Source of the DNA: Candidatus Magasanikiibacteriota bacterium
Lineage (GTDB): Bacteria; Patescibacteriota; Patescibacteriia; Magasanikbacterales; UBA922
Direction of reading: 5' to 3'
Assembly (NCBI GenBank): GCA_003510435.1
Contig: DOMK01000001.1
Location: 26,604 to 90,603, forward strand
Length of the DNA: 64,000 nucleotides
Position 1 is the first letter of the stretch; each line of letters begins with the position of its first letter. Below the pieces are notes generated by a model. That model searched no databases. It had not been told where the DNA came from and saw only the letters and a program-made list of their open reading frames with translations. Made by a program: the position numbers and the translations under genes. Below are positions 973 to 62,572 of the stretch, piece by piece.

Positions 973-1020
973 AAAAACACGAGACATAAAACACATATCA
1001 CATAACACGAGACAATTTAT

Positions 1021-1389
1021 ATGGCGAAAAATGACTACCATCAAAAATTGAGAGGATTGATTGTGGAGTACATCGTTTTAGGTTATAAGTCTTTGAAAAA
1101 ATTTCCTGATGACGAAAAGTATGGAATGATTTCACAATGTAAAAGAGCTCTGGTTTCAATCCTTTTAAATTATTTAGAAGGATTTGCTAGAACAAAGAAA
1201 AAAGTAATGGTAAATTTTTATGAAATTTCCTATGGCTCATTACAAGAAACTATAGGAATTTTTTATTTAGCAATATTTTTAGAATTTATTTCAAAAGAAG
1301 AATATAAAAAGTTGTTCGATATAAAAGAGGAAATAGCTAGAATGTTGTGGTCAACAACAAAAGGTGTAAAACAGGAAGATAGAGAATAA
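1021..1389 (+). CDS. four-helix-bundle protein (23S rRNA intervening-sequence protein family)
   Basis: 122 aa; helical; the LVSILLNYLEGFAR ... SYGSLQETIGIFYLA pattern is typical of the IVS-encoded four-helix-bundle family. Flanked by inverted repeats (see repeat feature and finding). Confidence 0.65.
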   Translation: MAKNDYHQKLRGLIVEYIVLGYKSLKKFPDDEKYGMISQCKRALVSILLNYLEGFARTKKKVMVNFYEISYGSLQETIGIFYLAIFLEFISKEEYKKLFDIKEEIARMLWSTTKGVKQEDRE

Positions 1390-1394
1390 AAACC

Positions 1395-1454
1395 ATTTGC
1401 CTTGTGTTGTGTGGTTTGTGGATTGTGTTATGTGATGTGTCGCACAATATTTTA
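1395..1454. repeat. inverted-repeat arm (TGTGTTATGTGATGTGTCG) complementary to ACACATATCACATAACACG at ~995-1020; the two arms bracket the four-helix-bundle ORF
   Basis: Read directly: the upstream arm cacatatcacataacacg is the reverse complement of the downstream arm tgtgttatgtgatgtg(tcg). Confidence 0.5.
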
Positions 1455-1503
1455 GTAGGGGAGAGGGAGCATGAAGAAGAGTAGGGGTGTTATTATAAAT
1501 TTA

Positions 1504-1540
1504 AAAAAGAGTTGGTTTCGTGCCAAACTCTTTTATTTTT
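1504..1540 (+). terminator. rho-independent terminator (AGAGTTGG-loop-CCAAACTCT + T-run)
   Basis: aaaaagagttggtttcgtgccaaactcttttattttt: perfect 9-bp stem followed by a T-tract, downstream of the plus-strand genes. Confidence 0.6.
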
Positions 1541-1805
1541 AAATTATTTTGAATTACTAATTACTAATTCACCTAATTTCTAATAAAAATTAAAATAAAA
1601 TTTTTAAATTAGTATTTTCTACATGCTGGAACGGTGAGAGTGTGATAAATGTATTAAATAGCATTAGTTATAAGCTTTTTTGGCTTAACTTAGTGATATG
1701 TTCATACCTGGGTTCTGAAAAGCCCTAGTATGTAGTGTCGTATAAGATATATTGTGCGACGCCAGTACTATCTTGAGCTAAGGAGAAAAAGCTATTCTCC
1801 CCTGC

Positions 1806-8198: not shown

Positions 8199-9012
8199 AA
8201 TTTTTAATTATTTCTAATAATTTTTCTTTTGTCTGTAAGTGTAGTCCGTGTCTAGCATTTTTAATTATTTCTAATTTTGAATTCTTGATTAGTTTGTTCA
8301 ATTTATAAGCATCAGACACTGGCAAATAACCATCCATGGTACCCCAGACAATTAAAGTCGGTACTGTAATTTTATTAGCCTCTTCTCCTCTATCTTGACG
8401 GATAATGTTTTTAAAAATTTCCCGTTTGATTCCAGATGTGTCGTGATAATCTTTGGCACCAATGGCTTTATGAAAAATATCTTCGGCCCAGAGAGAGCCT
8501 TTTTCTATCCACGGAATTTTAAAAATTAATTTACCAAATTTTGCGCCCGCGTTAAAAATTACACGTCTGAAAGTTTTCTTTGGTCGAAACACAGCCGGCG
8601 CAGTTAAAATTAATTTATCAATCATATCTGGATATTTACTAGCAAAAACTGTGGCGACTTGACCGCCGAAACTGTGACCGAGTAATACCACGTCATTCTG
8701 AGCGGAGCGGAGCGGAGTCGAAGAATCCCCTTGTTTGTACACAAAAAAATGGGATCCTTCGACTTCACTGCGGCTCACAAGCTCACCTTCGTTTCGCTCA
8801 GGATGAAGTAGTGATTCGATTTTATTTTTTACAAATTCAACATAATCCTCTACTCCCCAGACTTTATCTGGACATGGTTCATCACCAAAGCAAGGTAATT
8901 CAATAATTTGAATATCAAAATCATTACTGGCTAATTCAGCAAATTCGTTCCAAGTCGCTTTGTTTCCTCCCCAACCGGGAAGGATGATTAATTTTGATTT
9001 TAAATTATTCAT
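8188..9012 (-). CDS. alpha/beta-fold hydrolase carrying an in-frame palindromic-element insertion
   Basis: Nucleophile elbow LLGHSFGG. The 40-aa stretch LHPERNEGELVSRSEVEGSHFFVYKQGDSSTPLRSAQNDV is encoded by the repeat at 8692-8816. Confidence 0.65.
   Translation of the reverse strand: MNNLKSKLIILPGWGGNKATWNEFAELASNDFDIQIIELPCFGDEPCPDKVWGVEDYVEFVKNKIESLLHPERNEGELVSRSEVEGSHFFVYKQGDSSTPLRSAQNDVVLLGHSFGGQVATVFASKYPDMIDKLILTAPAVFRPKKTFRRVIFNAGAKFGKLIFKIPWIEKGSLWAEDIFHKAIGAKDYHDTSGIKREIFKNIIRQDRGEEANKITVPTLIVWGTMDGYLPVSDAYKLNKLIKNSKLEIIKNARHGLHLQTKEKLLEIIKNFVN
8692..8816. repeat. family-A palindromic element (GTCATYCTGAGCGGAGCGGAGCGGAGTCGAAG...CGCTCAGGATGA), inserted in frame
   Basis: Terminal inverted repeats gtcattctgagcg/cgctcaggatga and inner gtcgaagaatcccc/gggatccttcgac. 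Near-identical left half at 44340-44432. Confidence 0.7.
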
Positions 9013-11613: not shown

Positions 11614-11656
11614 ATTTTTAGGTTTTAGTGATTAGGTTTTAGGTTATAATTATTTT

Positions 11657-12432: not shown

Positions 12433-13458
12433 TTATAAATTATTTTCTTGAATAGTTTCTAATAATTCTGGCATCATTTGATCTAGCCATTCATTATCTC
12501 CGGGCAAAAAGTCATATTTGTTGTGAGTAGTAGGATCAATCCACTTGGCATCCAGGACTTCGTTATTATTAATATTTAGTTTGCCACCAATTATTTTACA
12601 TATTATTGGCACAAGATAGACTTGATAACTAAAATTTGGAAACTTATGATTTTTGACTGCAATTTTTTGTAATTGTTTAATAATTTTTACTTTGTAGCCG
12701 ACTTCTTCTTTGGCTTCTTTTATAACCGTGCTTTCTACTGATTCGCCAAAATCACAAATGCCTCCTGGTACTTCCCACTTTTTGTGCGATTCTTTACGAT
12801 GGGGATCATTGCGAAGAGTAATTAATAATTTTTTGTCTTGAATTATCAAAGCACATGGTACAACAATATGCTTCGCGCCAAATTGATTTTGTAAATAATA
12901 TTTAATTTTTTGTAAAGCTTTACCACGATGGGAACAAGAATTTTTTTCTTGCATATCCATTTGCGCATAGGTTTTCTTTTTGGCATTGACATAAAAAATT
13001 GGATCATAAGCAAAACCATCTTTACCTGTTTCTTTTTCAGTGATTTTTCCTTCGGTTAGTCCACTAGCCAGATACACATCTTGATTGCTAGGATTATAAA
13101 GTGAACAAACAATGGCAAAAGTAGCAGTGCGATTTTTCTTTCCTTTCATTTTTTCCAAAATAATATTTCTTCTTTCAACATCATTTTTTCCAATGCGAGC
13201 GGAATATACACCCGGATAATTTTTTAAGGACTTAACAAAAATTCCCGAATCTTCACTTAGAGTAATCAGACCTGTTTTTTCACCATAATAATTAGCTTTG
13301 AGCATAGCATTTTGTTCTAGAGTAGTGCCATTTTCTTCTGGTTCTAGAATATTTTTATCCAAGTCTTTTAAACTTAAAAATTCAAATGGTAAATCACCAA
13401 GGAATTTTTTGATTTCTTTAAATTTTCCTTTATTGGTTGTGGCGATGAGAACTTTCAT
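12433..13458 (-). CDS. fusion protein: RdgB/Ham1 non-canonical NTP pyrophosphatase (N-terminal) + Nudix hydrolase (C-terminal)
   Basis: N-terminal KVLIATTNKGKFKEIKKFLG ... FAYDPIF (Ham1). C-terminal Nudix box GGICDFGESVESTVIKEAKEEVGY. Confidence 0.7.
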   Translation of the reverse strand: MKVLIATTNKGKFKEIKKFLGDLPFEFLSLKDLDKNILEPEENGTTLEQNAMLKANYYGEKTGLITLSEDSGIFVKSLKNYPGVYSARIGKNDVERRNIILEKMKGKKNRTATFAIVCSLYNPSNQDVYLASGLTEGKITEKETGKDGFAYDPIFYVNAKKKTYAQMDMQEKNSCSHRGKALQKIKYYLQNQFGAKHIVVPCALIIQDKKLLITLRNDPHRKESHKKWEVPGGICDFGESVESTVIKEAKEEVGYKVKIIKQLQKIAVKNHKFPNFSYQVYLVPIICKIIGGKLNINNNEVLDAKWIDPTTHNKYDFLPGDNEWLDQMMPELLETIQENNL

Positions 13459-13550
13459 ACACGGAAATAAGGAATTAAAGGATTATACGGATTTTTTATT
13501 ATCATATTTTTTCCGTGTGATCCTTTATCTCCGTATCTCAGTGTTATACC
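13458..13550. repeat. family-D hairpin element (ACACGGAAATAAGGA...GGATTATACGG...TCCGTGTGATCCTTTATCTCCGT)
   Basis: Internal inverted repeats. Paralogous copies at 13952-13990, 14394-14440 and 32293-32338. Confidence 0.5.
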
Positions 13551-13951: not shown

Positions 13952-13988
13952 AACACGGAGATGAGGAGAAGACGGATTATACGGAACA

Positions 13989-14393
13989 TTATTTTTTTTC
14001 ATATCGGTCATATTCTCTATAGTTTACAATTCTTTTTATTTCTAATTTTGGATTACCAAAGTTTATTAATAAACCAACTTCCAGCTTACTTGCCTTGAGA
14101 TATGAAACTGTTTGAGTCTGAAAGATTTTTGGTAATTCACCACTAACAGCTTTTAATTCTATTATTATTTTATTATTTACTAACAAGTCTACTCTAAAAG
14201 TTCCTATTAATTTATTTTTGTAATACACGTCATATTCAAATTCAGATTCTATATCAAATTTATTTTCTATTAAATCATTTATCATGGCTTGATGATAAAT
14301 ATACTCTTTAAAACCAGGCCCAAGTGTTTTGTGTATTTCTATCGCTATACCTATAATTTTTTGTGTTAGTTCCCACTCCTTTTTTATTATCAT
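13989..14393 (-). CDS. GxxExxY-family protein (family typically encoded inside rRNA intervening sequences)
   Basis: LGPGFKEYIYHQAM = G-x-x-E-x-x-Y signature; 134 aa. Bracketed by family-D inverted repeats. Confidence 0.65.
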   Translation of the reverse strand: MIIKKEWELTQKIIGIAIEIHKTLGPGFKEYIYHQAMINDLIENKFDIESEFEYDVYYKNKLIGTFRVDLLVNNKIIIELKAVSGELPKIFQTQTVSYLKASKLEVGLLINFGNPKLEIKRIVNYREYDRYEKK

Positions 14394-14440
14394 ATTTTTT
14401 CCGTGTAATTCTTTATTTCCGTGTCTCAGTGTTTATACCA
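14394..14440. repeat. family-D repeat arm (TTTTTTCCGTGTAATTCTTTATTTCCGTGTCTCAGTGTT)
   Basis: Inverted copy of ACACGGAGATGAGGAGAAGACGGATTATACGG at 13955-13988. Near-identical to 13498-13550. Confidence 0.5.
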
Positions 14441-17180: not shown

Positions 17181-17244
17181 GTACAATAGTATTATAACAG
17201 AGTTCAAACATGAGTCAAGTTATTATCCACACTTGTCATAAAAA

Positions 17245-17327
17245 TACAATATACACGTAACAAAATACAAGTGAGTCCTGCAAATATGGTTTAATTTAAA
17301 AAATTGTATCTTGTTACGTGTATATTG
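17245..17327. repeat. long hairpin: 16-17-bp perfect inverted repeat CAATATACACGTAACAA / TTGTTACGTGTATATTG around a ~45-nt loop
   Basis: Read directly; resembles the empty stems of the IVS-like cassettes. Confidence 0.55.
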
Positions 17328-17335
17328 TGTATTGT

Positions 17336-19330
17336 CTATTGTTTCGTGTATTTCCACCACCAACGATAAAATTCATGAGCGATTGGAACGGAAATTGAAC
17401 TTCCTTCCCCACCCTCTTCCACCATGATAGTTATAACAATTTCTGGATTATCAAATGGGGCAAAGGAAGTAAACCAAGCGTGATTTTCTTTATTAGAACT
17501 CCATTGGGCTGTACCAGTTTTTCCCGCAGTAGTAAAAGGTAAAAGAGCTAAACGTCGACATGAACCATAGATAACACAGTCACGCATACCAAGTCTAACT
17601 ATACTAATATTTTTTTCATCTATAAAATTTTTATTGATTATTTCTGGAGAAATAGTTTGTTCTTCTTTTGTGATCGGATCAACAATAGATTTTACTATCT
17701 GGGGTTTGTAAATCGTACCGCCATTAGCAATGGTAGCAGTCATTTCGGCAATTTGTAGTGGTGTCACAAGTGTGTCTCCTTGACCAATTGATAAGTTGTA
17801 AGTATCTCCAACATACCATCTTTCTTTTTTGGTGGTTTCTTTCCATTCTTTTGAGGGTAAAAATCCAGCCTGTTCTCCTGGTAAATCTATACCCAATTTG
17901 GTAGCAAAATTAAATTTACGCAAATAATCAGTAATTTTACTAACACCTAGACCAACAAAGTCATTATAACCTCCAGCAATATAATAATAAAAAGTATTGA
18001 CTGACCAAGCTAGAGATTTTCTCACATCAGTTACGCCATGACCGCCAGCTTGCCAATCAGGAAAAAACCAAGTACCAATCTGTAGACCGCCAGTACTCAA
18101 AAAGCTTGTACTTTGATTAATAATCTTTTCTTGCAAGGCGGCCGCAGCAATTGCCGGTTTAATTGTTGAACCAGAGGGGTAGGTGCCACCAATTGCCCGA
18201 TTAAATAATGGGTTATTAATATCTTCGGTGTATTTTTTATAATTAGTATTGGTAATTCCGCCAGAAAAATCATTATTATCAAATGAGGGCAAACTGACCA
18301 ATGCTAATATTTCCCCAGTGTTAGGATTCATTACAATACCGCTAGCTCTTTGTTTTTTGGCAACATCTAGGTTTTGTTGAATAATTTTTTCTAAATTATT
18401 TTGAATATTGGCATCAATCGCTAATTTGATATGAAATCCTGGTTTGGGTGGTTCTTCGGCAATAATGGACTGTTCTTTACCAGTAGCATTTACTTCTATA
18501 CGCTTTTTTCCATAAGTACCCCGCATAAAATTTTCATAACTTTTTTCTATACCAGTTTTTCCTATACTATCTGATGGCAAATAACCAGATTTATATAATT
18601 CGTCTAATTCTGGTTTATTTAATTTTCCAATATAACCTAAAACATGGGCAAATGAATTGGCAGTGGTGGTAACACTGTTATCTTTTTCTACCAGAGGTAA
18701 ATAAAGTCTTTTGCTACTACGTTGGATTTGAATTCCTGGTAGTTCATTAGACTCAATTAAAATTGATAAAGCTTTTTCGTAATCTATATCTTCTTTTATA
18801 ATAATAGATTCATAGCTGTAAGAACCATATTCATCCAAAATTTTATTAATTTCATTTTTATCAACATCTAGTAGTTTGGATAATTTATCTATCAAATCAT
18901 TTTTTTGGGTTTTTTCTTTAGGTAGGTCTTGCGGTACTAAGGCTAAAGAAAAATTTGGAATATTTTTTGTTAATTGAATATTATTTCGATCATAAATTAA
19001 ACCTCGTTCAGCCACAATGGGAATTATTCTTTCACGATTGTTTTCGGCCGATAGTTTGTAGGTATCAGCCTTAATAATTTGTAGGTAAATTAGACGAGTT
19101 GTGATTAGAGAAAAAGATAATATTAAAAATATGAAAAAATAAAAGTTTTTTTTCGAGGTAAAACTGGTATTAGTGTACCGACCAATTTGTGGGGTTGAAA
19201 CTTGTTTGTCTGTTTTATTTTCAAAATATAAAGATTCTTCTGTCCAAGATTTTCGATACCTACCATCAAGTGAACCACTGTCTATTTCAGGAGAATTAAT
19301 TTCAAAAAAGTTTTTATTGTCATTAATCAT
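17336..19330 (-). CDS. mrdA: penicillin-binding protein 2 / peptidoglycan D,D-transpeptidase MrdA
   Basis: TM anchor, dimerisation domain, transpeptidase motifs (STIKP, SWN-like, KTGTA). Start placed at the ATG of MINDNKNFFE; the longer track ORF overlaps mreD. Confidence 0.85.
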   Translation of the reverse strand: MINDNKNFFEINSPEIDSGSLDGRYRKSWTEESLYFENKTDKQVSTPQIGRYTNTSFTSKKNFYFFIFLILSFSLITTRLIYLQIIKADTYKLSAENNRERIIPIVAERGLIYDRNNIQLTKNIPNFSLALVPQDLPKEKTQKNDLIDKLSKLLDVDKNEINKILDEYGSYSYESIIIKEDIDYEKALSILIESNELPGIQIQRSSKRLYLPLVEKDNSVTTTANSFAHVLGYIGKLNKPELDELYKSGYLPSDSIGKTGIEKSYENFMRGTYGKKRIEVNATGKEQSIIAEEPPKPGFHIKLAIDANIQNNLEKIIQQNLDVAKKQRASGIVMNPNTGEILALVSLPSFDNNDFSGGITNTNYKKYTEDINNPLFNRAIGGTYPSGSTIKPAIAAAALQEKIINQSTSFLSTGGLQIGTWFFPDWQAGGHGVTDVRKSLAWSVNTFYYYIAGGYNDFVGLGVSKITDYLRKFNFATKLGIDLPGEQAGFLPSKEWKETTKKERWYVGDTYNLSIGQGDTLVTPLQIAEMTATIANGGTIYKPQIVKSIVDPITKEEQTISPEIINKNFIDEKNISIVRLGMRDCVIYGSCRRLALLPFTTAGKTGTAQWSSNKENHAWFTSFAPFDNPEIVITIMVEEGGEGSSISVPIAHEFYRWWWKYTKQ

Positions 19331-21776: not shown

Positions 21777-21878
21777 AATATATACAACATACAATATACA
21801 TGGAATAATATACAAAAAATATATATCAAAATACAAATTGTATTTTGATCCATGTATATTGAATTTTAATTTTTATAT

Positions 21879-32762: not shown

Positions 32763-32868
32763 ATCTCGAGCGAAGCGAGAGATCCCTTTTCATTGGGTTT
32801 AACTTCGCTATATTTTAAGTATTGTTTAATGTTTTGGAAAGGGATTCCTCACCCTTCGGGATTCGGAA
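32763..32868. repeat. family-B palindromic element (~105 bp; CTCGAGCGAAGCGAGAGATCCCTTTT...AAAGGGATTCCTCACCCTTCGGGATTCGGA) between atpD and atpC
   Basis: Near-identical copy at 37411-37520; diverged copy at 45721-45835. Confidence 0.65.
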
Positions 32869-34264: not shown

Positions 34265-34360
34265 TTGTGATTATTGTTTGTTAATCATTTTTTTCACATA
34301 TCACATAGCACGTATCACATATCAATTTATTTGTTGTGTGGTATGTGTTGTGTGGTACGT
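34265..34360. repeat. ORF-less inverted repeat of the CACATATCACATA / TGTGTGGTATGTG type (empty IVS-like stem) between atpG and atpD
   Basis: tcacatatcacatagcacgtatcacatatca ... tgtgtggtatgtgttgtgtggtacgtga; arms are reverse-complementary. Confidence 0.5.
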
Positions 34361-34362
34361 GA

Positions 34363-37410: not shown

Positions 37411-37520
37411 CCAAAGCGAGAGATCCCTTTTCATTGGGTTTAACTTCGCTTTATTTTAAATATTGTTTAATGTGTTGGAAAGGGATTCCTCTCCGTCAGC
37501 TGACGGATCGGAATGAACGA
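37411..37520. repeat. family-B palindromic element between atpF and atpH; supplies the last codons of atpF
   Basis: taatctcgagccaaagcgagagatcccttttcattgggtttaacttcgctttattttaaatattgtttaatgtgttggaaagggattcctc... Confidence 0.65.
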
Positions 37521-38488: not shown

Positions 38489-38607
38489 TTACCTCGCGGA
38501 ATGATAGCAATTAATTAATAATAAAATTCAATATACATGCCTGCCTGCCGGTAGGCAGGGATCAAAATATAAATTGTATCGTGTTATGTGTATGTTGAAT
38601 TTTGTTA

Positions 38608-39417
38608 TTAATGTTCCTCTGCTCCATGTGGAGCGCTAGTGGCTACTGTCAAATATACAATTGTTAACATGGAAAATACCGCCGCTTGAATCAAGCCGAC
38701 TAATAATTCTAATAACATAAATGGTGTCGGTACCAAAGCTGCTACCAAAGCAGAAATTACAGAAATTAAAACTTCACCAGCAAAAATATTTCCAAATAAC
38801 CGAAGGGATAAAGAAACCACTTTAGCAATTTCAGACATGATCTCAATTAAACCAACTGCAAATTCAATCAAGGCAGTAAAAACAGCAATCGCGCCATCAG
38901 CAATGCCATGTTTAAACTGAGCAAAACTTTTAATAAAATTTTTAATTTGAAAAAATTTACCTAAATGAGTAAAGACTCCAATCGCAATAAAAGCATAAAC
39001 ATGAGAACCAATCACTGAGACTAAAGCCATAGCTAAAGTAAGATTCAAATCAGTATTAGCTGGACGCAAGAGCATATTATGACCAACAGTAATACTACCC
39101 GTACCTGGCAAAAGACCTAGCCAATTGGATAATAAGACGAAAAAGAAAATAGAACCGACAATTGGTAAAAATTTGACAGTTTTTTTTCTGTTACCTGTGA
39201 CACCGTCGAAATAACCGAGAACAGCTTCCAAAAAATATTCACACCAATTTTGTAATTTTCCTGGACGAAGTCTAATGGCTCGTTTGAGAACAATACCCAA
39301 TACCAAAAAAATAATAATGGCAATCCAAGCATTAATCATGGTATTAGTAATGTTTATATTACCAATATGAAAAACAACTTCTGGAGCTAAGGGTGGAATG
39401 TGAATTTCACTGGACAT
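38608..39417 (-). CDS. atpB: F-type ATP synthase subunit a
   Basis: 5-6 TM helices; conserved arginine helix region LSLRLFGNIFAGEV. Confidence 0.85.
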   Translation of the reverse strand: MSSEIHIPPLAPEVVFHIGNINITNTMINAWIAIIIFLVLGIVLKRAIRLRPGKLQNWCEYFLEAVLGYFDGVTGNRKKTVKFLPIVGSIFFFVLLSNWLGLLPGTGSITVGHNMLLRPANTDLNLTLAMALVSVIGSHVYAFIAIGVFTHLGKFFQIKNFIKSFAQFKHGIADGAIAVFTALIEFAVGLIEIMSEIAKVVSLSLRLFGNIFAGEVLISVISALVAALVPTPFMLLELLVGLIQAAVFSMLTIVYLTVATSAPHGAEEH

Positions 39418-41479: not shown

Positions 41480-41690
41480 TTTTATTCATAATAATCAACT
41501 TGACTAGCTTTACTTTTTAAAGCTTCTACTTTGTCTGAATAATTTTCAAAATATACTAATTTGTTTCTTTTGTATTTTTTAGACAAAGCATTATCATAAG
41601 TACCATCTTTATGTTGTTTACCTCTTTTTATTAAACTATCGGTATATCCCACTTATAAAACATTGTATATACTCGCCATAATATAAATAT
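41480..41690 (-). pseudogene. decayed GIY-YIG nuclease gene (paralog of 47930-48274), interrupted by an in-frame stop
   Basis: Minus-strand translation MASIYNVL*VGYTDSLIKRGKQHKDGTYDNALSKKYKRNKLVYFENYS... parallels YYVYIMASITKVLYVGYTDCLIKRGRQHKTGTYDNAFSKKYKTNKLVYFESYY. Confidence 0.55.
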
Positions 41691-41783
41691 AAGAAGTTCT
41701 ACTCCTTAATAATTTCATACAAAAGTTATGTATAAGAAAGACCCCTCCTCACTCTTTCAAGTTCGTTCGGGGTGGTGCAGTGA

Positions 41784-42342: not shown

Positions 42343-42404
42343 AGGAATTAGGAATAAGGGCTAGAAGCGGGTTTTCTCGCCTCTAGTCCCAATTCCCTAT
42401 TCCT
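42343..42404. repeat. family-C REP-like palindrome (AGGAATTAGGAATAAGGGCTAGAAGCG...CGCCTCTAGTCCCAATTCCCTATTCCT)
   Basis: See 24868-24922. Confidence 0.55.
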
Positions 42405-42407
42405 ATT

Positions 42408-43991: not shown

Positions 43992-44732
43992 CTACTTACT
44001 GATTACTATTACAAACTCCCCTTTTTCTGAAATATTCATCGCCAATATTTCTTTAATTGTCCCGCGATAAATTGTTTCAAATTTTTTAGTTAATTCACGA
44101 CACACACACATTTGTCTGTCTTCTTCTAAAACTTCAGCCAATTCTCCTAAACATTTTTTTATTCTGTGATTTGATTCATAAAATGCGACTGTGTATTCTG
44201 CCTTCGCCACATCAGCAAAAAAAGTTTTACGACCTTTTTTGTGTGGCGGAAAACCCATGAATACAAATTTGTCGGTTGGAAAGCCTGAAATACTTAAAGC
44301 CGTTATTACTGCACTTGGTCCTGGAATTGGCTCTACTGTGTCATCCTGAGCGGAGCGGAGCGGAGTCGAAGGATCCCCTTCTTCAACAGGGGGATATTTC
44401 GACTTCGCCCTCCGGGCTTCGCTCAATATGACGTTTATGAGTTGGTTTCCTGGATCTGATATACCTGGCGTACCAGCATCAGTTACTAATGCCAAATTTT
44501 TACCTTGTTCCAACAATTCCTTGATCTCACGAACTTTCTTTTCTTCACTATGTTGATGATAAGAAATAGTTTTGGTTTTAATCTCAAAATGATTCAACAA
44601 ATTTAGTGTTACTCTAGTATCTTCACACAAAATAAAATCCACACTTTTTAATATTTTAAGTGCACGTAAAGTGATGTCGCCTAGATTACCAATTGGCGTG
44701 GCGACTATGTATAATTTACCTGTATTTTCCAT
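43992..44732 (-). CDS. rsmI: 16S rRNA (cytidine1402-2'-O)-methyltransferase RsmI, carrying an in-frame family-A element
   Basis: LYIVATPIGNLGDITLRALKIL ... ILCEDTRVT. Inserted RRAKSKYPPVEEGDPSTPLRSAQDDTVEPIPGPS is encoded by the repeat. Confidence 0.85.
   Translation of the reverse strand: MENTGKLYIVATPIGNLGDITLRALKILKSVDFILCEDTRVTLNLLNHFEIKTKTISYHQHSEEKKVREIKELLEQGKNLALVTDAGTPGISDPGNQLINVILSEARRAKSKYPPVEEGDPSTPLRSAQDDTVEPIPGPSAVITALSISGFPTDKFVFMGFPPHKKGRKTFFADVAKAEYTVAFYESNHRIKKCLGELAEVLEEDRQMCVCRELTKKFETIYRGTIKEILAMNISEKGEFVIVISK
44340..44432. repeat. family-A palindromic element inside rsmI
   Basis: gtcatcctgagcggagcggagcggagtcgaaggatcccc...gggggatatttcgacttcgccctccgggcttcgctcaatatgac. 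Confidence 0.7.
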
Positions 44733-45724: not shown

Positions 45725-45835
45725 TCCGAGTGTAGCGAGGAATCCCTTTTCCTTGGGGTTAACATCGGTTTTATTTAATGCTTTTTTTAATGAATCAAAA
45801 AGGGATCCCTCACCCTTCGGGATTCGGGATGACGG
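45721..45835. repeat. family-B palindromic element (diverged copy)
   Basis: tcattccgagtgtagcgaggaatcccttttccttggggttaacatcgg...aaaagggatccctcacccttcgggattcgggatga. Confidence 0.6.
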
Positions 45836-47858: not shown

Positions 47859-47929
47859 AGTATAAATTAATCTCGAACGAAAAACAGAAAGCGAAGCGAA
47901 CTGTTTTGAGGAGAGATCTTTCTTACCTC

Positions 47930-48274
47930 TTAATTCTCTACGCGAGTAAAACCCTGCATAATATAAAAATTTTTCTTTACTTGTAAATATAAATCTATCC
48001 AATCTGGATTATCTTTTTCAATTAATTTGATCTTCTTCTCTTTTCTATATTTTTTAATTTGACTTTCTCTTTTTAGAGATTCTTCTTTTGTATAATAACT
48101 TTCAAAATAGACTAACTTATTAGTTTTATATTTTTTAGAAAAAGCATTATCGTATGTACCTGTTTTGTGTTGTCTACCTCTTTTTATAAGACAATCTGTA
48201 TAACCTACATACAATACTTTCGTTATACTTGCCATTATATAGACGTAGTAATTTCTCCTCCTTAAATTGTTCAT
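47930..48274 (-). CDS. stand-alone GIY-YIG nuclease-domain protein (UPF0213-like)
   Basis: YYVYIMASITKVLYVGYTDCLIKRGRQHKTG ... YFESYYTKEESLKRESQIKKY = GIY-YIG core. Confidence 0.7.
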   Translation of the reverse strand: MNNLRRRNYYVYIMASITKVLYVGYTDCLIKRGRQHKTGTYDNAFSKKYKTNKLVYFESYYTKEESLKRESQIKKYRKEKKIKLIEKDNPDWIDLYLQVKKNFYIMQGFTRVEN

Positions 48275-48327
48275 AGTGAGATTAGTTTTAAGAAAGATCT
48301 CTCGTCGCCCTTCGGGCTCACTCGAGA

Positions 48328-48729
48328 TTAATTTATCACTTCACTCAACTTCAATTCACCTAAATACTTAACTAATTTTTCATTAACCATTTTAAAAACT
48401 TTTTGAGAGTCACATTTTCCTTCTTTGGTGCAATGACAGCCTTTTTTTAGACAATTGGTGACAGCATACTCCCCTTCCAGTGCTTCGACAATATTTTTGA
48501 TAGTTAGATTTTTAAATTCATTATTTAGTTGATATCCACCCTGTGCGCCCTTTACTGATTTTACAATCTTGGCTTCACGAAGTTTTTTGGCAATTCTTTG
48601 TAAAAATAAAAAAGATATTTTTGAATCTTTTGAAAAATTTCGTAGACTTAATAATTCCCCACTCTTTGATTTTGTTAGAGCAGAGATGAGTTGGATACCA
48701 TAGTCTACTTCTTTGGTGAATTGCAACAT
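48328..48729 (-). CDS. Rrf2-family transcriptional regulator (IscR/SufR-like)
   Basis: wHTH DYGIQLISALTKSKSGELLSLRNFSKDSKISFLFLQRIAKKLREAKIVKSVKGAQGGYQL plus CxxxxxxC...C cluster ligands. Confidence 0.75.
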   Translation of the reverse strand: MLQFTKEVDYGIQLISALTKSKSGELLSLRNFSKDSKISFLFLQRIAKKLREAKIVKSVKGAQGGYQLNNEFKNLTIKNIVEALEGEYAVTNCLKKGCHCTKEGKCDSQKVFKMVNEKLVKYLGELKLSEVIN

Positions 48730-61411: not shown

Positions 61412-62572
61412 TTATTTTTTTATTATTTTATACACCCCTGCCTTTTTCCCAGAAATTAATACTGAGAAATTTTGTTCTAATATAAATTTATCAGTAAAGT
61501 CTTTTAATAAATCTAAAAATAATTCTCTCTGCCCCAACAATACAACCGCCACGCCACCTGGTTTTAAAACTCTAAAAAATGATTGAAGCATCTGGGTGTA
61601 AAATATATTTAATTCACTCTCGCTCTTTTTATTAAAAATCCCCCACGGTGGATCAGTCACAATTTTATCAATTGAATTATTAGCAATACTGGGCAAAACC
61701 AAAGCATCACCATTATATACTTCAATTTTCAAATTCATCCTTTGGACATTAGTTTGCAAATAATTAACTAGTTTTTTATCATTGTCCGTGGCAATCACGC
61801 GCGTATACTTATTTATTTTTACCCGCTCAATCGGAATCGCACCCGAGCCAACAAACGGATCCAAAAAAACATCAGTCTTATTCATGTCTGACAATTGACA
61901 CAAAATATTTGTCACTTCGGGACGGAGTTCACCTTGTTGAAGACTCTTGGCTGAATCATGGTTGTGAGTAATCCGCATACCAAAAAATCCCCTGCCTTCA
62001 CTCCGCAATAATATCCAAAATTCAATATCAGGTTTTTTTCGATTAGTTCTATATTTGGTAAAGTATTTTATTTTTTCTTCCAATTTTATTAAAAGCGTAT
62101 TGTCCACGGCTGACAATTGATTTTCTTTGGAAGTAATAATGCGAAAAGTTTTTTGTCTCACTGACAAAACCGGAATATTAAGCTTGGCATTATTCACCAA
62201 TTCATTAAGCATTAAATCTAAGGATAAATTTTTGTCAGAAAATTCTTTTATGAGAATAAAAGTATTATTTACAAACCGTAATTCTTTTACTTTGTTTACA
62301 TCTGTCGTAGTAGTATAAACAACTAACCCGTCCAAAAGTAAAACAATCTTGGTTTTATCCAGAGATTTAATTAGAAAATCTTTGACGGCATTTTCAAAAC
62401 CGCTTACAAATGTTGAATAATAGATGTACATAATAAGGAATAAGGAGAAAGGAATAAAAAAATATAATAAACTCTGTTTGTTCTGTTTGTTCTGTTTGTT
62501 CTGTTTGTTCTGTTTGTTCTGTTTGTTCTGTTTGTTCTGTTTGTTCTGTTTGTTCTGTTGTAAAATTAACAA
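61412..62572 (-). CDS. class I SAM-dependent RNA methyltransferase (DPPW amino-methyltransferase motif; THUMP-like N-terminal region) with (QNK)9 N-terminal repeat
   Basis: FLDPFVGSGAIPIE (motif I), IVTDPPWG (motif IV). True start may be the ATG at 62431 downstream of the repeat. Confidence 0.6.
   Translation of the reverse strand: MLILQQNKQNKQNKQNKQNKQNKQNKQNKQNKQSLLYFFIPFSLFLIMYIYYSTFVSGFENAVKDFLIKSLDKTKIVLLLDGLVVYTTTTDVNKVKELRFVNNTFILIKEFSDKNLSLDLMLNELVNNAKLNIPVLSVRQKTFRIITSKENQLSAVDNTLLIKLEEKIKYFTKYRTNRKKPDIEFWILLRSEGRGFFGMRITHNHDSAKSLQQGELRPEVTNILCQLSDMNKTDVFLDPFVGSGAIPIERVKINKYTRVIATDNDKKLVNYLQTNVQRMNLKIEVYNGDALVLPSIANNSIDKIVTDPPWGIFNKKSESELNIFYTQMLQSFFRVLKPGGVAVVLLGQRELFLDLLKDFTDKFILEQNFSVLISGKKAGVYKIIKK
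62474..62560. repeat. perfect tandem repeat (CTGTTTGTT)x~9.5
   Basis: Read directly. In frame it encodes QNKQNK... at the 5' end of the methyltransferase ORF. Confidence 0.9.

What the first reader, a model, noticed from the sequence alone, without database searches (positions are those of the whole stretch)
995..1454. Four-helix-bundle ORF bracketed by an ~18-bp inverted repeat: an rRNA-IVS-like cassette outside any rRNA gene
Four-helix-bundle proteins of this type are normally reported inside 23S/16S rRNA intervening sequences, where flanking inverted repeats form the RNase III-processed stem. Here the same layout (stem arm, ORF, stem arm) sits between an M23 peptidase gene and cell-wall genes. 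ORF-less versions of the same stem recur at 34265-34360 and 17245-17327. This points to a dispersed, possibly mobile, IVS-like element family rather than an rRNA-specific feature.
Basis: partly seen in the sequence, partly recalled or inferred. Interest (0 to 1): 0.55.

Follow-up and report, generated by a model that had tools for sequence, protein, structure and literature searches.

The report
Small gene bracketed by heptamer-repeat stem
A small, conserved four-helix-bundle gene sits inside a long stem built from mirrored runs of 7-base repeats, a layout that I also found around related genes in four bacterial phyla and that may link to the long-unexplained tandem heptamer repeats of Nostoc and Xanthomonas.

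Summary
ORF 1021-1389 is a PF05635 protein. It lies inside a 38-position stem (978-1015 with 1397-1434), and each arm is about five tandem 7-nt units.

The hairpin at 34294-34362 is an ORF-less copy of the same arm type. Those at 17244-17330 and 21786-21861 are ORF-less copies of a second arm type.

Of 75 related gene loci, nearly all from CPR bacteria, 54 have complementary flanks (z < -3) against 8 of 170 neighbouring genes. Repeats have period 7 or 8 on both sides in 61. Only one locus lies beside an rRNA gene. The cassettes are wedged into unrelated housekeeping operons.

Against its one syntenic ortholog the protein gives dN/dS 0.07, and arms and protein co-vary across loci.

The same layout flanks related genes on cyanobacterial plasmids and in Xanthomonas (accB|accC, GGGAATC repeats).

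Best reading: an ORF-bearing member of a dispersed, probably mobile, IVS-like cassette family with hairpin derivatives. RNase III excision is inferred. Wobble-pair asymmetry, my one indirect test of an RNA stem, was negative across the family. I found no paper that links these genes to heptamer repeats.

The parts
978..1015 (+). 5' arm: five tandem heptamers (CACGAGA CATAAAA CACATAT CACATAA CACGAGA) plus CAA. It starts 6 nt after the M23 peptidase stop codon and ends 5 nt before the ATG.
   Evidence: The outer 33 nt are 30/33 identical in the syntenic ortholog L015 although synonymous sites are saturated.
1021..1389 (+). Four-helix-bundle protein gene (PF05635, '23S rRNA intervening sequence protein'), 122 aa, pI 9.0.
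   Evidence: Pfam E 1.2e-21. PDB 2GSC at E 1e-7, and 4.6e-12 with a profile. dN/dS 0.07 against L015. Named 'four helix bundle protein', Candidatus Magasanikbacteria.
1397..1434 (+). 3' arm: the mirror run of heptamers (nnnnGTG units). It pairs in register with 978-1015. An alternative register uses 1423-1440.
   Evidence: The inner part differs from L015 by changes on both arms that keep the pairing.
1503..1535 (.). Terminator-like hairpin with an A-run before it and a T-run after it. It closes the M23-to-cassette transcription unit and faces the convergent ftsQ gene.
   Evidence: Read from the sequence. It folds in the window and in L015 with different stem sequences. The consensus scan did not call it.
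34294..34362 (+). ORF-less hairpin of the same arm type (CACATAT CACATAG CACGTAT CACATAT CAA / mirror), with a 5-nt loop. It starts directly after the atpG stop codon in the atpG|atpD spacer. It is much more stable on the + strand, which is antisense to the operon.
   Evidence: The 5' arm is 34/35 identical to the upstream arm of an ORF-bearing cassette in L019. In relative L097 the atpG|atpD spacer is 22 nt.
17244..17330 (.). ORF-less hairpin of a second arm type (ATACAATATACACGTAACAAAATACAA / mirror), between greA and a PBP2-type gene.
   Evidence: It is 24/27 identical to arms of ORF-bearing cassettes in L029 and L033.
21786..21861 (.). ORF-less hairpin of the second arm type (ATACAATATACATGGAATAATATACAA / mirror).
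   Evidence: It is 28/29 identical to arms of ORF-bearing cassettes in L033 and L032, and 25/26 to L046.

Best explanation
The element 978-1434 is one ORF-bearing copy of a family of compact cassettes with no room for a promoter or terminator of their own. Each is a four-helix-bundle (PF05635) gene enclosed by two complementary runs of tandem 7-nt (sometimes 8-nt) units.

The cassette sits at the 3' end of the M23 peptidase transcription unit. It starts 6 nt after the host stop codon and lies before the shared terminator-like hairpin. It is therefore most likely read through from the host promoter.

Shown:
- The layout.
- Its conservation across 75 related loci.
- Its specificity to this gene family.
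- Tight wedging into unrelated housekeeping operons.
- Co-inheritance of arms and ORF.
- Strong purifying selection on the protein (one ortholog pair) and conservation of the arms.
- Hairpins with the same arms but no ORF.
- Relatives whose corresponding spacers are short and empty.

Inferred:
- The unit has moved, or been copied, between intergenic sites and between lineages.
- The ORF-less hairpins are internal-deletion derivatives, as MITEs are of transposons.
- In a read-through transcript the arms pair into a 30-40 bp duplex that RNase III would cut, releasing the cassette RNA and separating the flanking host messages, as in an rRNA intervening sequence. I put this step at about 0.4.

The role of the protein is not shown. 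My working guess is that its oligomer binds the repeat runs, as RNA or DNA.
For: Layout in the window.

Family-wide:
- 54 of 75 loci have an arm-arm duplex z < -3, and 61 have z < -2. The best tandem lag is 7 or 8 on both sides in 61 of 75, whereas control segments spread over all lags.
- Only 8 of 170 neighbouring ORFs reach z < -3. Two of those are further PF05635 genes and one is a DUF559 nuclease.
- In-register pairing is 88%, against 62-66% when slid by one unit and 32-49% at other shifts.

Contexts of the closest homologs differ: recG, DUF3467|dnaJ, L27..ftsW, ftsW|murG, LemA|M48, and downstream of a 16S gene. Only L015 is syntenic.

The cassette is co-oriented with the upstream gene in 59 of 69 loci. 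The 5' arm starts within about 13 nt of the upstream stop codon in about 40 of the 59 co-oriented cases.

Selection and co-inheritance:
- dN/dS is 0.07 with dS 1.8 against L015, yet the arms are 30/33 identical in the outer part and still complementary in the inner part.
- Arm similarity tracks protein similarity: Mantel rho 0.22, p <= 0.002.

ORF-less hairpins carry arms 24/27 to 34/35 identical to arms of ORF-bearing cassettes in other CPR lineages.

Empty spacers in L097 are 22, 8 and 21 nt. Three FtsQ-syntenic relatives lack the gene.

The same layout occurs outside the CPR. Seven of 13 cyanobacterial-plasmid genes have mirrored heptamer runs. Ten of 27 period-7 arrays in 200 kb lie within 150 nt of 5 such genes, p 1.6e-11. 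In Xanthomonas the gene sits at accB|accC between GGGAATC-type repeats.

IVS precedent: PMC4990558. CPR rRNA insertions encode 23S_rRNA_IVP and GIY-YIG: PMC11270868.
Against: - No base-exact empty site for this particular insertion was found. The M23|ftsQ region of relatives carries other genes instead.
- No transposase, integrase or reverse transcriptase is in or next to the cassette, so there is no known way for it to move.
- No target-site duplication was established.
- Family-wide, sense-strand G.U and A.C mismatches in the stems are equal (137 vs 133; 30 vs 27 loci, p 0.79). This gives no support to selection for an RNA stem on the coding strand. It fits a DNA-level palindrome, or a recent symmetric origin, just as well.
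- The strong + strand bias of the two window elements is local. For the atp hairpin it lies on the strand antisense to the operon.
- No transcript data were available.
- No relatives were found in viral contigs.
Confidence: 0.7

Rival explanations
1. The arms act as double-stranded or single-stranded DNA, not RNA. They would be mirrored arrays of 7-bp binding sites for a protein: the encoded four-helix-bundle protein or a host recombinase. They would serve as element ends or as operators, the way multiple end-binding sites work in Tn7 or Mu, or heptad operators in the omega repressor system. On this reading the RNA stem is a by-product.
For: - G.U equals A.C in the sense strand across 70 loci.
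- Arm sequence, not only pairing, is conserved beyond synonymous-site saturation.
- Arms are near-identical across distant CPR lineages.
- Two loci have the repeat runs in direct rather than mirrored orientation (L103, L108). These cannot form a stem, yet they keep the repeats.
- The heptamer consensus C-A-Y-R-W-A-A is shared across CPR loci.
Against: - In-register complementarity (88%) clearly exceeds what two independent arrays of the same unit give (62-66% when slid by one unit). Palindromic symmetry is therefore kept position by position.
- The protein has no known DNA-cleaving or recombinase motif.
- The cassettes lie inside operons, so both arms are expected in one transcript and would pair anyway.
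Confidence: 0.3
2. The heptamer hairpins are host elements in their own right, for example RNA-stability, attenuator or regulatory hairpins, or a separate MITE-like family. The small genes insert into hairpin tips, as IVSs sit at tips of rRNA helices. The arms would then belong to the target, not to the gene cassette.
For: - ORF-less hairpins and lone heptamer runs outnumber the genes. There are three hairpins to one gene in this window. About 21 short-loop periodic hairpins occur in 433 kb of CPR loci. There are 70-75 convergent GGGAATC pairs per Xanthomonas genome (PMC4692102).
- Heptamer repeats affect expression of recF and recO in Nostoc (bioRxiv 2022.06.06.494920).
- CPR rRNA insertions lie mostly at the top or base of stem-loops (PMC11270868).
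Against: - Arm type goes with the gene family. PF05635 genes have heptamer runs. The PDDEXK_3, GIY-YIG and DUF559 cassettes have non-periodic arms.
- Arm similarity tracks protein similarity.
- The ORF-less PDDEXK_3 hairpin at 13458-13547 keeps the 5' leader, ATG and first four codons of the ORF-bearing copy. It is therefore a deletion product, not an empty target.
Confidence: 0.15
3. It is the accessory (Avd-type) gene of a diversity-generating retroelement, or a remnant of one.
For: PF05635 proteins are homologous to Avd (PMC10053308). Several close homologs carry a weak PF22296 bAvd hit.
Against: - No reverse transcriptase domain was found in the window ORFs that were scanned, nor among the called neighbours of the homolog loci looked up.
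- There is no template/variable repeat pair. The only long direct repeat in 64 kb is a GIY-YIG paralog.
- The window protein itself gave no bAvd hit.
Confidence: 0.03
4. It is an ordinary vertically inherited host gene, and its flanking complementarity is chance or simple low-complexity sequence.
For: - The genome is AT-rich (33.7% G+C) and full of hairpins.
- The promoter scan gave no more sites than shuffled sequence, and no terminator was called.
Against: - z -4.8 in the window.
- 72% of family loci reach z < -3 against 5% of neighbouring genes.
- Contexts of close homologs differ.
- Periodicity is specific to lags 7 and 8.
Confidence: 0.03

Closest known systems
ORF-bearing 23S rRNA intervening sequences (Coxiella burnetii IVS with S23p; Leptospira IVS)
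   Same: - The protein family is the same (PF05635).
- The size is the same: 428 nt in Coxiella, 457 nt here.
- The layout is the same: terminal complementary arms forming a long stem (28 bp in Coxiella, 38 positions here) around a roughly 120-codon ORF.
- The distribution is sporadic and suggests transfer (PMC4990558).
   Different: - It is not in an rRNA gene. It lies at the end of a peptidase operon.
- None of 81 related loci screened lies inside an rRNA gene, and one lies beside one.
- The arms are tandem heptamers. Whether real IVS arms are too was not tested.
- The protein here is under strong purifying selection. Coxiella S23p is reported as probably not made.
- RNase III cleavage is not shown here.
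REPIN-RAYT systems (REP sequences and their flanked transposase gene)
   Same: - A gene is bracketed by its own repeat type in inverted orientation.
- Short ORF-less inverted pairs of that repeat are scattered in intergenic spacers of the same genome.
- Several repeat types occur per genome.
   Different: - The encoded protein is a four-helix bundle with no HUH/Y1 transposase motif.
- The repeats are runs of 7-nt units, not single 20-40 nt palindromes.
- The genes are multi-copy and wedged inside operons.
Tandem heptamer repeats of cyanobacteria (STRR) and Xanthomonas (GGGAATC), and TAACTGA repeats of Beggiatoaceae
   Same: - Units of 7 nt in 3-14 copies.
- Intergenic, often abutting start codons.
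- Frequent convergent (mirrored) pairs in Xanthomonas.
- Function unknown (PMC4692102, PMC4679880, bioRxiv 2022.06.06.494920).
   Different: Those papers do not mention PF05635 genes. Here the repeats bracket such genes in the CPR, in cyanobacterial plasmids and in Xanthomonas accB|accC. Unit sequences differ between phyla: C-A-Y-R-W-A-A here, G-rich units there.
MITEs and their autonomous parents
   Same: Terminal inverted repeats, short ORF-less derivatives, intergenic insertion, and presence/absence differences between relatives.
   Different: No transposase and no demonstrated target-site duplication. The 'parent' is only about 460 nt and encodes a non-enzymatic-looking protein.
DGR accessory protein Avd
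   Same: A homologous four-helix-bundle fold family. Avd is a basic pentamer that binds nucleic acid and its reverse transcriptase (own knowledge, and PMC10053308).
   Different: No reverse transcriptase and no template/variable repeats here.

Membership tests
PF05635 four-helix-bundle protein ('23S rRNA intervening sequence protein') | Profile match above the curated cut-off over most of the domain | tested here: met
   77.4 bits against 33.8, E 1.2e-21, profile positions 17-105 of 106.
PF05635 four-helix-bundle protein ('23S rRNA intervening sequence protein') | Sequence relationship to solved four-helix-bundle members | tested here: met
   2GSC (XCC0516) at E 1.1e-7 as a single sequence and 4.6e-12 with the family profile. 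2RLD at 3e-4. The fold itself was not predicted here.
rRNA intervening sequence (IVS) | Lies inside an rRNA gene, at a helix tip (23S helices 9, 25, 45 or 16S sites) | tested here: not met
   No rRNA in the window. The flanks are an M23 peptidase and ftsQ.
rRNA intervening sequence (IVS) | Complementary termini forming a long stem that encloses the insert | tested here: met
   38-position stem, -41 kcal/mol, z about -4.8.
rRNA intervening sequence (IVS) | Excised from the precursor by RNase III without re-ligation | not testable with these tools
   No transcript data. The indirect wobble-asymmetry test was negative family-wide.
rRNA intervening sequence (IVS) | Sporadic distribution among relatives | tested here: met
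   Present in the window and in L015. Absent from three FtsQ-syntenic relatives. Homologs sit in different contexts.
DGR accessory protein (Avd) | Adjacent reverse transcriptase and a template/variable repeat pair | tested here: not met
   No RT domain among the window ORFs that were scanned. No such repeat pair in 64 kb.
REPIN-RAYT system | Gene flanked by its cognate repeat in inverted orientation, with ORF-less inverted pairs of that repeat in the same genome | tested here: met
   The arms of 978-1434 and the hairpin 34294-34362 share the CACATAT-type units. Only 64 kb of the genome was seen.
REPIN-RAYT system | The gene encodes an HUH/Y1 (IS200/IS605-like) transposase | tested here: not met
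   PF05635 is the only Pfam match.
MITE / TIR transposon | Terminal inverted repeats plus target-site duplication, and a transposase in the autonomous copy | tested here: inconclusive
   Inverted repeats are present. No transposase domain. Target-site duplication was not established because the boundaries are fuzzy in AT-rich sequence. One 7-nt direct repeat seen at the L019 junctions is anecdotal.
Bacterial tandem heptamer repeats (STRR / GGGAATC class) | Three or more head-to-tail 7-nt units in intergenic DNA, often as convergent pairs | tested here: met
   TRF rows 974-1014, 1402-1427, 34294-34361, 17241-17342 and 21780-21831. Family-wide lag 7 or 8.

The most novel reading that the evidence does not exclude
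PF05635 four-helix-bundle genes and bacterial tandem heptamer repeats form one system that spans phyla. The gene, bracketed by mirrored runs of its own heptamer, is the ORF-bearing 'master'. The many ORF-less heptamer hairpins and arrays are its satellites. These satellites would include cyanobacterial STRRs and Xanthomonas GGGAATC pairs, unexplained since 1990 and 2015. The protein would be the missing factor that binds, maintains or spreads them, analogous to RAYT-REPIN but with a non-transposase protein. ORF-bearing rRNA intervening sequences would then be the rare cases in which such an element landed in an rRNA helix.
Probability: 0.25. Interest if true: 0.85.

Novelty: new variant of a known kind. 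Interest (0 to 1): 0.68.

Why it matters
PF05635 proteins are among the commonest unexplained small proteins in bacterial genomes. They carry a name, 'rRNA intervening sequence protein', that does not fit this sample, where none of 81 related loci lies inside an rRNA gene.

Tandem heptamer repeats have been used for strain typing and noted in several phyla, without an origin or a binding partner.

If the two belong together, three puzzles fold into one testable system:
- what IVS proteins are for;
- where heptamer repeats come from;
- why CPR and cyanobacterial operons are peppered with hairpins.

Culturable models and a solved structure already exist: Xanthomonas accB|FHB|accC with PDB 2GSC, and Nostoc plasmids.

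There is also a practical side. Such cassettes split operons, break assemblies and create spurious 'CRISPR-associated' signals.

Tried and rejected
- Rfam over the whole window at gathering scores gave nothing. An E-value scan of 900-1900 gave only chance-level hits.
- No tRNA or tmRNA.
- The promoter scan gave no more sites than shuffled sequence, and no terminator was called.
- Viral contigs hold no relative of the protein.
- FtsQ-based search for an empty site: three relatives were found, but the M23|ftsQ interval holds other genes there (xerC-like, HAD, a membrane protein). No base-exact empty site resulted.
- Closest AtpG relative (92%): its contig ends exactly at the atpG 3' end, so it is uninformative for the atp hairpin.
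- Wobble asymmetry: my first count used a scoring scheme that favoured G.U (173 vs 88). Redone with symmetric scoring it vanished (137 vs 133), so I dropped the claim of RNA-strand selection.
- DGR reading rejected: no RT and no TR/VR.
- Literature: one search was swamped by an unrelated acronym. No paper in the library links PF05635, S23 or four-helix-bundle genes to heptamer repeats.
- The rRNA operon of the source genome could not be reached.
- Real IVS sequences (Coxiella, Leptospira) could not be fetched to check their arms.
Full report
**1. What is at the coordinates**

The window is AT-rich (33.7% G+C). Its proteins match a Candidatus Magasanikbacteria (CPR) groundwater genome.

ORF 1021..1389 (+) encodes a 122-aa basic protein (pI 9.0). 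It matches PF05635 '23S_rRNA_IVP' at E 1.2e-21 and the solved four-helix bundle 2GSC.

The 16-nt inverted repeat found by the repeat finder (993-1008/1425-1440) is the core of a longer stem. In that stem 978-1015 pairs with 1397-1434 over 38 positions, including G.U pairs.
- Duplex energy is -41 kcal/mol on the + strand and -26 on the - strand.
- With 70-nt flanks the z-score against shuffles is -4.8.
- The 5' arm begins 6 nt after the M23 peptidase stop codon and ends 5 nt before the ATG.
- The 3' arm begins 8 nt after the stop codon.
- A terminator-like hairpin follows at 1503-1535 and faces the convergent ftsQ gene.

The 5' arm reads CACGAGA CATAAAA CACATAT CACATAA CACGAGA CAA, and the 3' arm is its mirror.

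**2. The other hairpins in the window**

- 34294-34362 is a 32+32-nt hairpin with a 5-nt loop (-44 kcal/mol, z -8.8). It is made of the same units: CACATAT CACATAG CACGTAT CACATAT CAA.
- The shared 17-mer has 9 matches at up to 3 mismatches against 0.24 expected. All lie inside these two elements.
- This hairpin sits directly after the atpG stop codon, in the atpG|atpD spacer.
- 17244-17330, and a fourth hairpin at 21786-21861, are built from a different unit series, ATACAATATACAyGkAAwAAATACAA.

**3. Is this a property of the gene family?**

Look-ups of the closest homologs (56-82% identity) place them in unrelated housekeeping contexts:
- next to recG;
- between DUF3467 and dnaJ;
- on both sides of ftsW;
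- between LemA and an M48 peptidase;
- about 150 nt downstream of a complete 16S rRNA gene.

Only the 79% homolog (L015) is syntenic with the window.

A scan of one genome per species returned 76 loci, nearly all Patescibacteria. Printing 60 nt on each side of every ORF shows, in almost every case, 3-6 tandem 7- or 8-nt units upstream and their reverse complement downstream. The unit differs from locus to locus: GTAACTT, GAAACCT, CATGAAT, CATTAAAA, CAGTAAA and others.

Quantified:
- 54 of 75 loci have an arm-arm duplex z < -3, and 61 have z < -2.
- The best tandem lag is 7 in 55 (upstream) and 56 (downstream) loci, and 8 in 11 and 13. Both sides have lag 7 or 8 in 61 of 75.
- Random segments of the same loci spread over all lags.
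- Among 170 neighbouring ORFs only 8 reach z < -3. Two of these are further PF05635 genes and one is a DUF559 nuclease.
- Pairing is 88% in register, 62-66% when one arm is slid by one unit, and 32-49% at other shifts.

The arms are therefore both periodic and true position-by-position palindromes. The pooled unit is C-A-Y-R-W-A-A, with a median of 4.4 units per arm.

**4. Wedging and orientation**

The cassette is co-oriented with the upstream gene in 59 of 69 loci and with the downstream gene in 54 of 69. The 5' arm starts within about 13 nt of the upstream stop codon in about 40 of the 59 co-oriented cases. The 3' arm often ends at the next start codon. There is no room for a promoter or terminator of the cassette's own.

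**5. Selection and co-inheritance**

Against its syntenic ortholog the protein shows dN/dS 0.07 with dS 1.8, which is saturated. This rests on one pair of sequences.

The outer 33 nt of the 5' arm are nevertheless 30/33 identical. The inner part has changed on both arms so that pairing is kept: ACACGAGACAA:TTGCCTTGTGT against ACACAAACCA:TGGTTTGTGG.

Across 70 loci, arm similarity rises with protein similarity (Mantel rho 0.22, p <= 0.002).

**6. ORF-less hairpins are the same thing without the gene**

- The 5' arm of 34294-34362 is 34/35 identical to the upstream arm of an ORF-bearing cassette in a Paceibacter genome (L019).
- 21786-21861 is 28/29 identical to arms in L033 and L032, and 25/26 to L046.
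- 17244-17330 is 24/27 identical to arms in L029 and L033.
- In L097, a relative with 77% AtpG identity, the atpG|atpD, atpD|atpC and atpF|atpH spacers are 22, 8 and 21 nt. In the window they are 114, 107 and about 60 nt and hold hairpins.
- About 21 short-loop hairpins with 7/8-nt periodic arms occur in 433 kb of the fetched CPR loci.

**7. RNA or DNA?**

In the window both the cassette and the atp hairpin are far more stable on the + strand: 6 G.U to 1 A.C and 7 to 1. For the atp hairpin that strand is antisense to the operon.

My first family-wide count favoured G.U, but the scoring was biased. With symmetric scoring the sense strand has 137 G.U and 133 A.C, and 30 loci against 27 (p 0.79).

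The data therefore do not show selection for an RNA stem on the coding strand. They fit a DNA-level palindrome, or a recent symmetric origin, equally well. Because both arms lie inside operons, an RNA duplex of 30-40 bp is still the physical expectation. RNase III cleavage remains an inference by analogy with the Coxiella IVS, where cuts map inside the 28-bp stem (PMC4990558).

**8. Link to rRNA**

- The window has no rRNA.
- Of 81 related loci screened with universal rRNA motifs, only L014 has one. Rfam confirms a complete 16S gene there, with a terminator-like hairpin between it and the cassette.
- The literature reports 23S_rRNA_IVP and GIY-YIG ORFs in non-intron insertions of CPR rRNA genes (PMC11270868).
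- rRNA is thus an occasional landing site, not the norm, for this clade.

**9. Beyond the CPR**

tblastn against plasmids found 19 records, mostly Nostoc and Calothrix. I read thirteen genes.
- Seven have mirrored heptamer runs on both sides: GTAGGGA/TCCCTAC, GGGTGTA/TACACCC (twice), GAGGAGATAAG-type, GGGAAAA/TTTCCCT, GGGAACA/TGTTCCC and GAAGTCG/ACTTCCG.
- Two have direct runs on both sides. One of these is a Gemmatimonadota plasmid with 8-mers.
- Three have one-sided runs, and one has none.

In 200 kb from four plasmids, 10 of 27 period-7 arrays lie within 150 nt of the five annotated genes. About 0.47 would be expected (p 1.6e-11). Other arrays form ORF-less mirrored pairs.

In Xanthomonas the 2GSC-type gene sits between accB and accC. 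It has GGGAATC-type units upstream and CATTCCC-type units downstream, and the 3' arm ends at the accC ATG.

GGGAATC repeats, including 70-75 convergent pairs per genome, were described in 2015 with no function and no mention of this gene (PMC4692102). [quoted passage not shown] I found no paper in the held library that connects the two.

**10. Parallel cassettes in the window**

- A PDDEXK_3 ORF (13989..14393, -) lies inside a 35-nt inverted repeat. An ORF-less copy at 13458-13547 keeps the leader, the ATG and four codons, so it is a deletion product.
- A GIY-YIG ORF (47930..48274, -) lies inside nested inverted repeats, between an Rrf2 regulator and a cysteine-desulfurase-like gene.
- Their arms are not heptameric. 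The heptamer construction goes with PF05635.

**11. Verdict**

The finding is real. The best-supported reading is an ORF-bearing member of a dispersed, probably mobile, IVS-like cassette family with hairpin derivatives (confidence about 0.7). The RNase III step and the role of the protein are inferred.

It fails the defining location test for an rRNA IVS and the enzyme test for a REPIN-RAYT or MITE system. I therefore file it as a new variant of a known kind.

The most novel reading not excluded is that PF05635 genes and bacterial tandem heptamer repeats are one system and the protein is their missing partner. I give it about 0.25.

Noticed in passing
window 13952-14433 and 13458-13547: A PDDEXK_3 (PF13366) ORF, 13989..14393 (-), is enclosed by a 35-nt inverted repeat. 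An ORF-less hairpin with the same arms lies one gene away. It keeps the leader, the ATG and the first four codons, so it looks like a deletion product. Together they flank a cytidylyltransferase gene.
   Followed up: partly
window 47862-48336 and 41482-41756: A GIY-YIG ORF, 47930..48274 (-), sits inside two nested inverted repeats, wedged between an Rrf2 regulator and an Aminotran_5 gene. A decayed GIY-YIG fragment, 75% identical over 244 nt, lies at 41513-41756.
   Followed up: partly
window 32773-32853, 37414-37494, 45733-45813: An 81-nt hairpin element occurs three times (95% and 64% identity). Two copies are in spacers of the atp operon. It is present at the same place in a 92%-AtpG relative (L096) and absent from a 77% relative (L097), whose spacers are 8-22 nt.
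   Followed up: partly
window 8692-8806 and 44340-44408: A palindromic element beginning GTCATTCTGAGCGGAGCGGAGCGGAGTCGAAG (93% between copies) lies inside two long ORFs, an alpha/beta hydrolase and a TP_methylase. These may be in-frame insertions into coding sequence.
   Followed up: no
window 38539-38559 (inside hairpin 38514-38612); L025 2456-2476: A 21-nt GC-rich palindrome, GCCTGCCTGCCGGTAGGCAGG, sits in a hairpin loop here. The identical 21-mer interrupts the heptamer arm of a cassette in a Falkowbacteria genome. It may be a very small nested element.
   Followed up: partly
window 1437-1762: A perfect 14-nt inverted repeat (GTGTCGCACAATAT / ATATTGTGCGAC) brackets a 300-nt ORF-less stretch next to the cassette. 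The stretch contains the terminator-like hairpin and an (AATTACT)x4.4 run. Blocks of it are identical in L015 although synonymous sites of the neighbouring gene are saturated. There is no Rfam match.
   Followed up: partly
L019 3375-3740: A DUF559 (Vsr-like endonuclease) ORF of 121 aa is enclosed by a very strong stem (z -10). This is a fourth small-gene family with the stem-ORF-stem layout.
   Followed up: partly
L102 553-909; L103 541-900: On cyanobacterial plasmids the four-helix-bundle gene is wedged between cas10 and cmr3, and between cas6 and cas4. Such insertions and their flanking repeat runs may explain the reported 'CRISPR association' of 23S rRNA IVP (PMC10910872).
   Followed up: no
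window 62464-62568: A near-perfect tandem 9-mer, TCTGTTTGT, of about 11 copies lies at the overlap of two ORF calls.
   Followed up: no
L096 (contig end at 6958): The contig of the closest relative (AtpG 92%) ends exactly at the atpG 3' end, where the window carries the heptamer hairpin. This may be an assembly break at a repeat.
   Followed up: no
window 11616-11645 and 42383-42407: Lone period-7 runs, (TTTTAGG)x4.3 and (CTATTCC)x3.7, occur in intergenic spacers. I saw no obvious mirrored partner.
   Followed up: no
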